A stretch of DNA of 64,000 nucleotides from the human T2T-CHM13v2.0 reference genome, Homo sapiens: assembly GCF_009914755.1 (NCBI RefSeq), contig NC_060933.1. One strand, given 5' to 3'. Made by a program: the position numbers and the translations under genes. Position 1 is the first letter of the stretch; every line of letters starts with the position of its first letter. This document shows, piece after piece, positions 12,927-30,700 of this stretch. Under the pieces are notes generated by a model. The model was not told the origin of the DNA. It was given only the letters and a program-made list of their open reading frames with translations, and ran no database searches.

Positions 12927-15773
12927 TTTTTTTTTTAAATTTATTATTATTATACTTTAAGTTTTAGGGTACATGTGCACAATGTGCAGGTTAGTTACAT
13001 ATGTATACATGTGCCATGCTGGTGCGCTGCACCCACTAACTCATTATCTAGCATTAGGTATATCTCCCAATGCTATCCCTCCCCCCTCCCCCCACCCCAC
13101 AACAGTCCCCAGAGTGTGATGTTCCCCTTCCTGTGTCCATGTGTTCTCATTGTTCAGTTCCCACCTATGAGTGAGAATATGCGGTGTTTGGTTTTTTGTC
13201 CTTGCGATAGTTTACTGAGAATGATGATTTCCAATTTCATCCATGTCCCTACAAAGGACATGAACTCATCATTTTTTATGGCTGCATAGTATTCCATGGT
13301 GTATATGTGCCACATTTTCTTAATCCAGTCTATCATTGTTGGACATTTGGGTTGGTTCCAAGTCTTTGCTATTGTGAATAATGCCGCAATAAACATACAT
13401 GTGCATGTGTCTTTATAGCAGCATGATTTATAGTCCTTTGGGTATATACCCAGTAATGGGATGGCTGGGTCAAATGGTATTTCTAATTCTAGATCCCTGA
13501 GGAATGGCCACACTGACTTCCACAATGGTTGAACTAGTTTACAGTCCCACCAACAGTGTAAAAGTGTTCCTATTTCTCCACATCCTCTCCAGCACCTGTT
13601 GTTTCCTGACTTTTTAATGATTGCCATTCTAAGTGGTGTGAGATGGTATCTCATTGTGGTTTTGATTTGCATTTCTCTGATGGCCAGTGATGGTGAGCAT
13701 TTTTTCATGTGTTTTTTGGCTGCATAAATGTCTTCTTTTGAGAAGTGTCTGTTCATGTCCTTTGCCCACTTTTTGATGGGGTTGTTTGTTTTTTTCTTGT
13801 AAATTTGTTTGAGTTCATTGTAGATTCTGGATATTAGCCCTTTGTCAGATGAGTAGGTTGTGAAAATTTTCTCCCATTTTGTAGGTTGCCTGTTCACTGT
13901 GATGGTAGTTTCTTTTGCTGTGCAGAAGCTCTTTAGTTTAATTAGCTCTCATTTGTCAATTTTGGCTTTGGTTGCCATTGCTTTTGGTGTTTTAGACATG
14001 AAGTCCTTGCCCATGCCTATGTCCTGAATGGTAATGCCTAGGTTTTCTTCTAGGGTTTTTATGCTTTTAGGTCTAACGTTTAGCACCAATCCCACAGAAA
14101 TACAAACTACCATCAGAGAATACTACAAACACCTCTATGCAAATAAACTAGAAAATCTAGAAGAAATGGATAAATTCCTCGACACATACACTCTCCCAAG
14201 ACTAAACCAGGAAGAAGTTGAATCTCTGAATAGACAATAACAGGAGCTGAAATTGTGGCAATAATCAATAGCTTACCAACCAAAAAGAGTCCAGGACCAG
14301 ACAGATTCACAGCCGAATTCTACCAGAGGTACAAGGAGCAACTGGTACCATTCCTTCTGAAACTATTCCAATCAATAGAAAAAGAGGGAATCCTCCCTTA
14401 CTCATTTTATGAGGCCAGCATCATCCTGATACGAAAGCTGGGCAGAGACACAACCAAAAAAGAGAATTTTAGACCAATATCCTTGATGAACATTGATGCA
14501 AAAATCCTCAGTAAAATACTGGCAAACCGAATCCAGCAGCACATCAAAAAGCTTATCCACCATGATCAAGTGGGCTTCATCCCTGGGATGCAAGGCTGGT
14601 TCAATATACGCAAATCAATAAATGTAATCCAGCATATAAACAGAACCAATGACAAAAACCACATGATTATCTCAATAGATGCAGAAAAGGCCTTTGACAA
14701 AATTCAACAACCCTTCATGCTAAAAACTCTCAATAAATTAGGTATTGATGGGACGTATTTCAAAATAATAAGAGCTATCTATGACAAACCCACAGCCAAT
14801 ATCATACTGAATGGGCAAAAACTGGAAGCATTCCCTTTGAAAACTGGCACAAGACAGGGATGCCCTCTCTCACCACTCCTATTCAACATAGTGTTGGAAG
14901 TTCTGGCTAGGGCAATTAAGCAGGAGAAGGAAATAAAGGGTATTCAGTTAGGAAAAGAGGAAGTCAAATTGTCCCTGTTTGCAGACGACATGATTGTATA
15001 TCTAGAAAACCCCATCGTCTCAGCCCGAAATCTCCTTAAGCTGATAAGCAACTTCAGCAAAGTCTCAGGATACAAAATCAATGTACAAAAATCACAAGCA
15101 TTCTTATACACCAACAACACACAAACAGAGAGCCAAATCATGAGTGAACTGCCATTCACAATTGCTTCAAAGAGAATGAAATACCTAGGAATCCAACTTA
15201 CAAGGGATGTGAAGGACCTCTTCAAGGAGAACTGCAAACCACTGCTCAAGGAAATAAAAGAGGATACAAACAAATGGAAGAACATTCCATGCTCATGGGT
15301 AAGAAGAATCAATATCGTGAAAATGGCCATACTGCCCAAGGTAATTTACAGATTCAATGCCATCCCCATCAAGCTACCAATGACTTTCTTCACAGAATTC
15401 GAAAAAACTACTTTAAAGTTCATATGGAACCAAAAAAGAGCCCGCATCGCCAAGTCATCCTAAGCCAAAAGAACAAAGCTGGAGGCATCACACTACCTGA
15501 CTTCAAACTATACTACAAGGCTACAGTAACCAAAACAGCATGATACTGTTACCAAAACAGAGATATAGATCAATGGAACAGAACAGACCCCTCAGAAATA
15601 ACGCCGCATATGTACAACTGTCTGATCTTTGACAAACCTGAGAAAAACAAGCAATGGGGAAAGGATTCCCTATTTAATAAATGGTTCTGGGACAACTGGC
15701 TAGCCATATGTAGAAAGCTGAAACTGGATCCCTTCCTTACACCTTATACAAAAATCAATTCAAGATGGATTAA
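12927..15773 (-). mobile_element. Young L1PA (PA2/PA3-like), 5'-truncated with a twin-priming inversion (L1-A)
   Basis: Poly-T at 12927; antisense 3'UTR/ORF2 to 14081 (ORF 13154..13897 -); sense ORF2 RT segment 14084-15775 (ORF 14255..15463 +, LFADD motif). Perfect 16-bp TSD agaaactggctataaa at 12911-12926 and 15774-15789. Confidence 0.95.
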
Positions 15774-27710: not shown

Positions 27711-30700
27711 TTTATTTTTATTTTTATTTTTTTTTGTTATTTTTTTTATTATACTTTAAGTTTTAGGGTACATGTGCACATTGCGCAGGTTAGTTACATA
27801 TGTATACATGTGCCATGCTGGTGCGCTGCACCAACTCGTCATCTAGCATTAGGTGTATCTCCCAATGCTATCCCTCCCCCCTACCCCCACCCCACCACAG
27901 TCCCCAGAGTGTGATATTCCCCTTCCTGTGTCCATGTGATCTCATTGTTCAATTCCCACCTATGAGTGAGAATATGCGGTGTTTGGATTTTTGTTCTTGC
28001 AGTAGTTTACTGAGAATGATGATTTCCAATTTCATCCATGTCCCTACAAAGGACATGAACTCATCATTTTTTATGGCTGCATAGTATTCCATGGTGTATA
28101 TGTGCCACATTTTCTTAATCCAGTCTATCATTGTTGGACATTTGGGTTGGTTCCAAGTCTTTGCTATTGTGAATAATGCCGCAGTAAACATATGGGTGCA
28201 TGTGTCTTTATAGCAGCATGATTTATAGTCCTTTGGGTACATACCCAGTAATGGGATGGCTGGGTCAAATGGTATTTCTAATTCTAGATCCCTGAGGAAT
28301 TGCCACACTGACTTCCACAATGGTTGAACTAGTTTACAGTCCCACCAACAGTGTAAAAGTGTTCCTATTTCTCCACATCCTCTCCAGCACCTGTTGTTTC
28401 CTGACTTTTTAATGATTGCCATTCTAACTGGTGTGAGATGGTATCTCACTGTGGTTTTGATTTGCATTTCTCTGATGGCCAGTGATGGTGAGCATTTTTT
28501 CATGTGTTTTTTGGCTGCATAAATGTCTTCTTTTGAGAAGTGTCTGTTCATGTCCTTCGCCCACTTTTTGATGGGGTGGTTTGTTTTTTTCTTGTAAATT
28601 TGTTTGAGTTCATTGTAGATTCTGGATATTAGCCCTTTGTCAGATGAGTAGGTTGCGAAAATTTTCTCCCATTTTGTAGGTTGCCTGTTCACTCTGATGG
28701 TAGTTTCTTTTGCTGTGCAGAAGCTCTTTAGTTTAATGAGATCCCATTTGTCAATTTTGTCTTTTGTTGCCATTTCTTTTGGTGTTTTGGACATGAAGTC
28801 CTTGCCCATGCCTATGTCCTGAATGGTAATGCCTAGGTTTTCTTCTAGGGTTTTTATGGTTTTAGGTCTAACGTTTAAGTCTTTAATCCATCTTGAATTG
28901 ATTTTTGTGTAAGGTGTAAGGAAGGGATCCAGTTTCAGCTTTCTACATATGGCTAGCCAGTTTTCCCAGCGCCATTTATTAAATAGGGAATCCTTTCCCC
29001 ATTGCTTGTTTTTCTCAGGTTTGTCAAAGATCAGATGGTTGTACATATGCGGCGTTATTTCTGAGGGGTCTGTTCTGTTCCATTGATCTATATCTCTGTT
29101 TTGGTAACAGTATCATGCTGTTTTGGTTACTGTAGCCTTGTAGTATAGTTTGAAGTCAGGTAGTGTGATGCCTCCAGCTTTGTTCTTTTGGCTTAGGATG
29201 ACTTGGCGATGCGGGCTCTTTTTTGGTTCCATATGAACTTTAAAGTAGTTTTTTCGAATTCTGTGAAGAAAGTCATTGGTAGCTTGATGGGGATGGCATT
29301 GAATCTGTAAATTACCTTGGGCAGTATGGCCATTTTCACGATATTGATTCTTCTTACCCATGAGCATGGAATGTTCTTCCATTTGTTTGTATCCTCTTTT
29401 ATTTCCTTGAGCAGTGGTTTGTAGTTCTCCTTGAAGAGGTCCTTCACATCCCTTGTAAGTTGGATTCCTAGGTATTTTATTCTCTTTGAAGCAATTGTGA
29501 ATGGGAGTTCACTCATGATTTTGCTCTCTGTTTGTCTGTTGTTGGTGTATAAGAATGCTTGTGATTTTTGTATGTTGATTTTGTATCCTGAGACTTTGCT
29601 GAAGTTGCTTATCAGCTTAAGGAGATTTTGGGCTGAGACAATGGGGTTTTCTAGATATACAATCATGTCGTCTGCAAACAGGGACAATTTGACTTCCTCT
29701 TTTCCTAACTGAATACCCTTTATTTCCTTCTCCTGCTTAATTGCCCTGGCCAGAACTTCCAACACTATGTTGAATAGGAGTGGTGAGAGAGGGCATCCCT
29801 GTCTTGTGCCAGTTTTCAAAGGGAATGCTTCCAGTTTTTGCCCATTCAGTATGATATTGGCTGTGGGTTTGTCATAGATAGCTCTTATTATTTTGAAATA
29901 CGTCCCATCAATACCTAATTTATTGAGAGTTTTTAGCATGAAGGGTTGTTGAATTTTGTCAAAGGCCTTTTCTGCATCTATTGAGATAATCATGTGGTTT
30001 TTGTCATTGGTTCTGTTTATATGCTGGATTACATTTATTGATTTGCGTATATTGAACCAGCCTTGCATCCCAGGGATGAAGCCCACTTGATCATGGTGGA
30101 TAAGCTTTTTGATGTGCTGCTGGATTCGGTTTGCCAGTATTTTATTGAGGATTTTTGCAGCAATGTTCATCAAGGATATTGGTCTAAAATTCTCTTTTTT
30201 GGTTGTGTCTCTGCCCGGCTTTCATATCAGGATGATGCTGGCCTCATAAAATGAGTTAGGGAGGATTCCCTCTTTTTCTATTGATTGGAATAGTTTCAGA
30301 AGGAATGGTACCAGTTCCTCCTTGCACCTCTGGTAGAATTCGGCTGTGAATCCATCTGGTCCTGGACTCTTTTTGGTTGGTAAACTATTGATTATTGCCA
30401 CAATTTCAGCTCCTGTTATTGGTCTATTCAGAGATTCAACTTCTTCCTGGTTTAGTCTTGGGAGAGTGTATGTGTCGAGGAATTTATCCATTTCTTCTAG
30501 ATTTTCTAGTTTATTTGCGTAGAGGTGTTTGTAGTATTCTCTGATGGTAGTTTGTATTTCTGTGGGATCGGTGGTTATATCCCCTTTATCATTTTTTATT
30601 GTGTCTATTTGATTCTTCTCTCTTTTTTTCTTCATTAGTCTTGCTAGCGGTCTATCAATTTTGTTGATCCTTTCAAAAAACCAGCTCCTGGATTCATTAA

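What the first reader, a model, noticed from the sequence alone, without database searches (positions are those of the whole stretch)
14084..30573. Identical ORF2-killing lesions in the truncated intronic L1 and the full-length L1 downstream
Seen: L1-A and L1-B carry the same 1-bp deletion (gccaagtcatcc at 15449-15460; ggatgacttggc at 29196-29207), so both ORFs end RARIAKSS*. They share the TGG>TGA stop plus TGG>TGT (15541; 29113) and an identical 89-aa out-of-frame ORF (15274..15543 + = 29113..29382 -). They also share [22 protein letters not shown] and, in the non-inverted part, ctaAttctaga (13483; 28278). Established: L1 proteins act preferentially in cis, and ORF2p lacking its C-terminal domain is inactive. 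Inference: either a dead L1-B RNA was mobilised in trans and landed about 12 kb from its source, or the copies were homogenised after insertion. Caveat: the older L1 at 42339 has a TGA at the same codon, so that one site may mutate recurrently.
Basis: partly seen in the sequence, partly recalled or inferred. Interest (0 to 1): 0.72.

Follow-up and report, generated by a model that had tools for sequence, protein, structure and literature searches.

The report
Neighbouring L1 copies swapped DNA patches
Two broken jumping-gene (L1) copies on either side of the last exon of the bone-disease gene TMEM38B share mutations only in two short patches, most likely because one copy overwrote parts of the other after both had inserted, a known kind of event rather than a dead element jumping.

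Summary
The shared lesions are real. The 1-bp-deletion 23-mer occurs exactly twice in the genome, in L1-A and L1-B, against 4,807 undeleted copies. The sharing is confined to tracts. A 384-bp stretch (15235-15618 = 29421-29038) is identical and holds 7 shared rare variants in a row (permutation 1 of 200,000). A second, older-looking tract (about 14340-15015) has 3 shared variants and 6 differences. Elsewhere the copies differ by 2.7-4.1%, like unrelated L1s: 39 of 61 dispersed L1s are closer to L1-A's 3' arm than L1-B is, and L1-A keeps ancestral alleles where L1-B has derived ones. L1-B also has ORF1 and upstream ORF2 stops; L1-A lacks the ORF2 one. So trans-mobilisation of a dead L1-B RNA is not supported. 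The best reading is two independent insertions later homogenised by ectopic gene conversion across the 13.8-kb inverted repeat, with L1-A the likely donor in the older tract. Tree tests of monophyly outside the tracts were not significant (p 0.20, 0.30). Conversion between neighbouring repeats is a known process. The side point is that a crossover here would invert or delete TMEM38B exon 6.

The parts
12911..12926 (+). L1-A left target-site duplication (16 bp)
   Evidence: exact match to 15774-15789
12926..14082 (-). L1-A non-inverted 3' arm with poly(A); direct repeat of the L1-B 3' end, 14,795 bp away; not homogenised
   Evidence: 34 substitutions in 1129 bp plus a 4-bp indel versus L1-B; 1 shared rare variant
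14084..15776 (+). L1-A inverted 5' arm (ORF2 fragment); inverted repeat of L1-B 30573-28880, centres 13.8 kb apart
   Evidence: 98.3% to L1-B overall; L1-B is its best non-self hit among 40 scored
14340..15015 (+). Tract 1, older-looking conversion tract (= 30316-29641); ends approximate
   Evidence: 6 differences in 676 bp, 3 shared rare variants, 396-bp identical run 14512-14907, genome-unique 43-mer, A+B clade SH-aLRT 95
15235..15618 (+). Tract 2, recent conversion tract (= 29421-29038) holding the frameshift and the TGA stop
   Evidence: 384 bp identical, 7 shared rare variants in a row
15774..15789 (+). L1-A right target-site duplication; first 3 bases overlap the end of the inverted arm
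24544..27308 (+). TMEM38B exon 6 (last exon), lying between the two L1s
   Evidence: annotation table given with the finding; not tested here
27726..33752 (-). L1-B, full length about 6.0 kb; ORF1 stop at 32639, ORF2 stop at 30224, frameshift near 29199, stop at 29115-29113; 5' UTR lacks about 128 bp present in the older L1-C
35745..41900 (-). L1-C, older neighbour used as outgroup (about 92.5% to L1-B); lacks the TGA stop and most shared variants

Best explanation
L1-A and L1-B differ like unrelated copies except in two patches of L1-A's inverted arm, so they are most likely independent great-ape-era L1 insertions that were later partly homogenised by ectopic gene conversion. Shown: tract structure, L1-A's own target-site duplication and 5' inversion, different lineage alleles outside the tracts. 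Inferred: the inversion made L1-A's 5' arm an inverted repeat of L1-B 13.8 kb away; a break in one copy was repaired on the other without crossover, at least twice. The older event likely copied L1-A into L1-B. The recent event copied 384 bp or somewhat more, including the frameshift and stop, which had arisen as ordinary post-insertion decay in one copy; its donor is not determined.
For: Order of shared-rare (S) and differing (D) sites: inverted arm 10D,S,3D,S,D,S,9D,7S,6D; 3' arm one S among 35 D; run of 7 S seen in 1 of 200,000 label shuffles, 46 of 200,000 within the inverted arm alone. Two difference-free runs of 384 bp or more: 0 of 50,000 uniform simulations. Longest run of shared rare substitutions among 1,128 pairs of dispersed L1s is 2, versus 6 for A-B. 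A-B divergence by segment: 2.7, 0.9, 4.1, 0, 3.8% and 3.0% in the 3' arm; panel median 1.3-2.8%. 39 of 61 panel L1s are closer to A's 3' arm than B is. Best trees join A and B inside the tracts and separate them outside. Direction in tract 1: B's 6 nearest 3'-arm relatives differ from B at 30231, 29967 and 29709 in 6 of 6 and at 30011 in 4 of 6, while A's nearest relatives match at 30231 (7 of 8), 30011 (9 of 9) and 29967 (8 of 9). Both copies of A's target-site duplication are in place, so there is no net inversion.
Against: AU tests do not reject an A+B clade outside the tracts (p 0.199 for the 3' arm; p 0.296 for the rest of the inverted arm). The 65-locus panel was chosen as best hits to L1-A from only 40 scored candidates per search (of 1,228, 7,977 and 3,527), which biases nearest-relative counts towards A. 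Tract ends were drawn after seeing the data. The alleles that give direction in tract 1 are the ancestral ones (they match L1-C), and the 29709 allele is in only 1 of 8 of A's nearest relatives. No ape or population sequence was available, so the unconverted state was never observed.
Confidence: 0.9

Rival explanations
1. Dead L1-B RNA was mobilised in trans and inserted nearby as L1-A (parent-daughter).
For: Genome-unique shared frameshift; L1-B is the best non-self hit of the inverted arm; one shared rare variant in the 3' arm; AU tests not significant.
Against: 0 differences in 384 bp versus 34 in 1129 bp (Fisher p 7e-5); 7 of 7 versus 1 of 16 of B's rare alleles shared (p 3e-5). A is ancestral at 6 of 7 non-CpG lineage sites where B is derived, so a daughter of B would need several reversions. 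Information appears to run A to B in tract 1. The 3'-arm variant is in 0.9% of L1s.
Confidence: 0.02
2. The same one-way copying, but templated by RNA or cDNA (for example the TMEM38B intron-5 transcript carrying L1-A) rather than by direct DNA pairing.
For: L1-A lies in a transcribed intron (annotation) and is the likely donor in tract 1; cDNA-mediated conversion is described for yeast Ty and Tf2 (PMC6598467).
Against: A diffusible template would not favour the one copy 14 kb away among thousands; the frameshift haplotype is in no third copy.
Confidence: 0.03
3. Repeated inversion and re-inversion of the 13.8-kb segment, with conversion at the crossovers, left the tracts.
For: Both clear tracts lie in the inverted-repeat arm: 10 shared to 29 different there versus 1 to 35 in the direct-repeat arm (Fisher p 0.007).
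Against: No net inversion now; the inverted state would detach TMEM38B exon 6 (inference from the annotation); it needs two crossovers where one non-crossover suffices.
Confidence: 0.03
4. Assembly or polishing artefact: reads of one L1 overwrote the other over 384 bp.
For: Perfect identity in tract 2; raw reads could not be examined.
Against: Tract 1 has shared unique variants interleaved with copy-specific ones, including a shared variant at 14433/30223 whose new CpG then decayed in B only; distinguishing sites flank tract 2 on both sides at once.
Confidence: 0.02

Closest known systems
Non-allelic gene conversion between neighbouring Alu elements (Aleshin and Zhi 2010, as summarised in PMC6598467 and PMC8230782; passages seen, original not read)
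   Same: Nearby copies of one retroelement family share non-diagnostic mutations in mosaic tracts; rate reported to rise within about 10 kb; older copies can overwrite younger ones.
   Different: Here the elements are L1, 13.8 kb apart, with tracts of about 0.4-0.7 kb, and the homology block comes from a 5' inversion.
L1 gene conversion (Burton et al. [quoted passage not shown]
   Same: Replacement of L1 sequence by another L1 after insertion.
   Different: Not read, so not compared in detail; here donor and acceptor are both identified and adjacent.
Interlocus gene conversion in segmental duplications and palindrome arms (PMC10172114 passages; PMC3723533 listing only)
   Same: One-way copying between non-allelic homologues, including inverted ones.
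   Different: Those repeats are much longer and more alike; that study's SD set excludes pairs made entirely of common repeats.
5'-inverted L1 formed by twin priming (Ostertag and Kazazian 2001; title seen in a reference list, mechanism recalled)
   Same: L1-A has a poly(A) arm, an inverted 5' arm, a 2-bp loss at the junction, 3-bp microhomology and a 16-bp target-site duplication.
   Different: Nothing; this explains L1-A's shape, not the shared lesions.

Membership tests
Ectopic gene conversion between repeats | Shared derived variants clustered in a tract, with normal divergence on both sides | tested here: met
Ectopic gene conversion between repeats | Tree position changes between tract and flanks | tested here: inconclusive
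   best trees change as expected, but AU p 0.20 and 0.30 outside the tracts
Ectopic gene conversion between repeats | Non-reciprocal, flanks unchanged | tested here: met
   both copies carry the same alleles; L1-A's target-site duplications in place
Ectopic gene conversion between repeats | Unconverted state seen in an orthologue or another haplotype | not testable with these tools
   no ape or second human genome held (no relatives)
Parent-daughter retrotransposition (trans) | Parent's private alleles inherited along the whole daughter | tested here: not met
   1 of 23 outside the tracts versus 7 of 7 in tract 2
Parent-daughter retrotransposition (trans) | Daughter carries the parent's lineage alleles | tested here: not met
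   differ at 7 of 20 non-CpG lineage sites in the 3' arm, A ancestral at 6
TPRT insertion with 5' inversion (L1-A) | Target-site duplication, poly(A), inverted 5' segment | tested here: met
L1PA3 (late) / L1PA2 for L1-B | 129-bp 5' UTR deletion (PMC7110667, PMC5860796 passages) | tested here: met
   99+29 bp gap versus L1-C at about position 765
L1PA3 (late) / L1PA2 for L1-B | Match to curated subfamily diagnostic sites | not testable with these tools
   no repeat library on hand; the subfamily names are inferred and partly recalled

The most novel reading that the evidence does not exclude
TMEM38B's last exon sits inside an L1 pair that has paired ectopically at least twice, so the locus is a cryptic rearrangement hotspot: crossovers would give a 13.8-kb copy-neutral inversion or a 14.8-kb deletion of exon 6 and could be a missed cause of type XIV osteogenesis imperfecta. 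More widely, short-range L1-L1 conversion may be common: 5 neighbour pairs within 25 kb share one rare L1 variant among 100 listed sites, against 0.08 expected.
Probability: 0.2. Interest if true: 0.55.

Novelty: new member of a known kind. Interest (0 to 1): 0.27.

Why it matters
It removes an apparent exception to L1 cis preference: shared killing mutations between nearby L1s need not mean that a dead element jumped. It is a clean, datable case of L1-L1 conversion with both partners known, and a warning for parent-daughter and age inference from L1 sequence. It also shows that the repeats flanking TMEM38B exon 6 probably recombine; null TMEM38B alleles cause recessive osteogenesis imperfecta (PMC4956114, passages), so an exon-6 inversion or deletion is worth looking for.

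Tried and rejected
AU tests of A+B monophyly outside the tracts gave no rejection. A third carrier of the stop+TGT motif, 0.83 Mb away, is a 94%-identical older L1 without the deletion or the other four tract-2 variants, so it is neither parent nor tract donor. One neighbour pair from the RTNDKNH list (chr3, 12.8 kb apart) was checked and was inconclusive: 19 differences in 499 bp and an older subfamily than the panel. The TGA-stop list shows no neighbour excess (1 pair versus 0.28 expected). L1-C was rejected as donor: it has 1 of the 10 shared rare alleles tested, 29256. No clear target-site duplication was found for L1-B. The whole genome was not available as a file, so no genome-wide ranking of all L1 copies was made. 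Earlier findings of the scan were not open. Three classic L1 papers were not held. Literature searches (TMEM38B; L1 conversion) listed no paper on this locus or on an L1-mediated exon-6 rearrangement; only listings and the passages named were seen, no supplements were read, and subscription papers are not covered.
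Full report
Observation. L1-A spans 12911-15789 in TMEM38B intron 5 (annotation). It has a poly(A)-bearing arm on the minus strand (12926-14082), an inverted arm on the plus strand (14084-15776) and an exact 16-bp target-site duplication. 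L1-B is a full-length minus-strand element, 27726-33752. L1-B's ORF2, read from its start, already stops at codon 518 (30224), and its ORF1 stops at codon 73; L1-A lacks the codon-518 stop and has its own frameshift near 14236.

How rare the shared variants are. Exact genome-wide counts: deletion 23-mer 2, both here, against 4,807 undeleted; 14910-14952 haplotype 2, both here; stop+TGT 33-mer 3; TGA stop alone 319; RTNDKNH 37-mer 230; 14433 variant 45; ctaAttctaga 106 of 11,944. So the two copies have exchanged or inherited sequence; chance does not explain the deletion.

Uniform or in tracts. I aligned L1-A, L1-C and 65 dispersed L1 loci (70 fetched, 5 self-hits dropped) to L1-B and classed each site. 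A-B differences: 7 of 256 bp (14084-14339), 6 of 676 (14340-15015), 9 of 219 (15016-15234), 0 of 384 (15235-15618), 6 of 158 (15619-15776) and 34 of 1129 in the 3' arm. Shared rare variants in the same segments: 0, 3, 0, 7, 0 and 1. The run of 7 arose in 1 of 200,000 label shuffles, and two difference-free runs of 384 bp or more in 0 of 50,000 simulations. Leaving out the 8 loci that were picked with the tract as query, all six tract-2 substitutions are in 0 of 56-57 loci, and none of 1,128 dispersed pairs has a run above 2. Segment ends were chosen after seeing the data; the shuffle test does not depend on them.

Not parent and daughter. Outside the tracts L1-A has 1 of L1-B's 23 rare alleles; inside tract 2 it has 7 of 7 (Fisher p 4e-6). 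In the 3' arm 39 of 61 panel loci are closer to A than B is, and B is not among the 40 hits scored for that arm. A and B differ at 7 of 20 non-CpG lineage sites there, and A matches the older L1-C at 6 of the 7, so A belongs to an earlier lineage than B. Best trees separate A and B outside the tracts and join them inside (SH-aLRT 95 in tract 1; identical rows in tract 2). Against this, the AU test did not reject an A+B clade outside the tracts (p 0.199 and 0.296), and the panel was selected for likeness to A.

Direction and age. In tract 1, B carries alleles typical of A's relatives and absent from its own six nearest relatives at 30231 and 29967, with weaker support at 30011 and 29709. Tract 2 has no strongly diagnostic site, so its donor is open. 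Tract 1 has 3 shared and 6 differing sites, tract 2 has 7 and 0 (Fisher p 0.011, post hoc), which suggests at least two events. Zero differences in 384 bp bound tract-2 divergence at 0.78% (95%), against about 3% background. With a recalled human-chimpanzee divergence near 1.2% this would put the event on the human lineage; untested. L1-B lacks about 128 bp of 5' UTR relative to L1-C, matching the 129-bp deletion that arose in great-ape L1PA3 (PMC7110667, PMC5860796, passages). The subfamily names are inferred; no repeat library was available.

Mechanism. Inferred: L1-A inserted first with a 5' inversion; L1-B inserted later about 400 bp past the TMEM38B 3' end. The inverted arm and L1-B then formed a 1.7-kb, roughly 97% identical inverted repeat 13.8 kb apart, and breaks were repaired on the neighbour without crossover. 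Both target-site copies of L1-A are in place, so no net inversion occurred. Sharing is richer in the inverted than in the direct arm (p 0.007), but one locus cannot show an orientation rule. The single 3'-arm variant may be chance (0.9% of L1s carry it) or a very short tract.

Comparison with what is known. Conversion between nearby repeats is established for Alu, with higher rates within about 10 kb and cases of old copies overwriting young ones (PMC6598467, parts 1-2 of 4 read; PMC8230782, passages), and for segmental duplications (PMC10172114, passages). L1 conversion has been in print since 1991 (reference title only). Cis preference is stated in PMC6035798 (passage). My searches listed no paper on this pair, which does not prove absence.

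Side results. Among 100 of 106 listed carriers of the ctaAttctaga variant, 5 adjacent pairs lie within 25 kb against 0.084 expected (4 without this pair, Poisson p 2e-6; 9e-4 with fivefold clumping). The RTNDKNH list gives 5 against 0.2, the TGA list 1 against 0.28, and the common-allele control 1 against 3.0. Local duplications were not excluded and the one pair checked was inconclusive. By geometry, a crossover in the inverted arm would invert about 13.8 kb and one in the direct arm would delete 14,795 bp, both including TMEM38B exon 6. Null alleles cause type XIV osteogenesis imperfecta; the deletions named in the passages seen affect exon 4 or exons 1-2 (PMC4956114).

Verdict. A real feature, best explained by ordinary ectopic gene conversion between two independently inserted L1s (0.9); trans-mobilisation about 0.02. 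New member of a known kind; interest 0.27.

Noticed in passing
genome-wide lists: Rare L1 variants are shared by neighbours within 25 kb far more often than uniform placement predicts (5 versus 0.08 and 5 versus 0.2), unlike a common-allele control; may reflect frequent short-range L1 conversion or local duplication.
   Followed up: partly
L073 (G000:C9:118785500-118786300): An older L1 0.83 Mb away shares the TGA stop and TGT change (66-bp identical window) and B's allele at 29037, but not the deletion; homoplasy or a very short tract.
   Followed up: yes
window 14432-14433 / 30224-30223: A shared variant created a CpG that then decayed in L1-B only, producing its codon-518 stop; this orders the events within tract 1.
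   Followed up: yes
window 43531-64000: A long tandem array with a unit near 75 bp, 70-75% self-identity and blocks in both orientations (switches near 59000 and 63150), mostly not masked in the annotation table and with an Alu at 52817-53128.
   Followed up: no
window 27726-41900: L1-B and the older L1-C lie 2 kb apart in the same orientation; RefSeq enhancers 32776-34077 overlap L1-B's 5' UTR, whose antisense promoter would face away from TMEM38B (recalled feature).
   Followed up: no
window 33752-33765 and 27715-27726: L1-B has no clear target-site duplication; at most a 5-6 bp A/T-rich match.
   Followed up: partly
window 3211-5961: A further older L1 fragment on the plus strand, 76-77% identical to L1-B and L1-C.
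   Followed up: no
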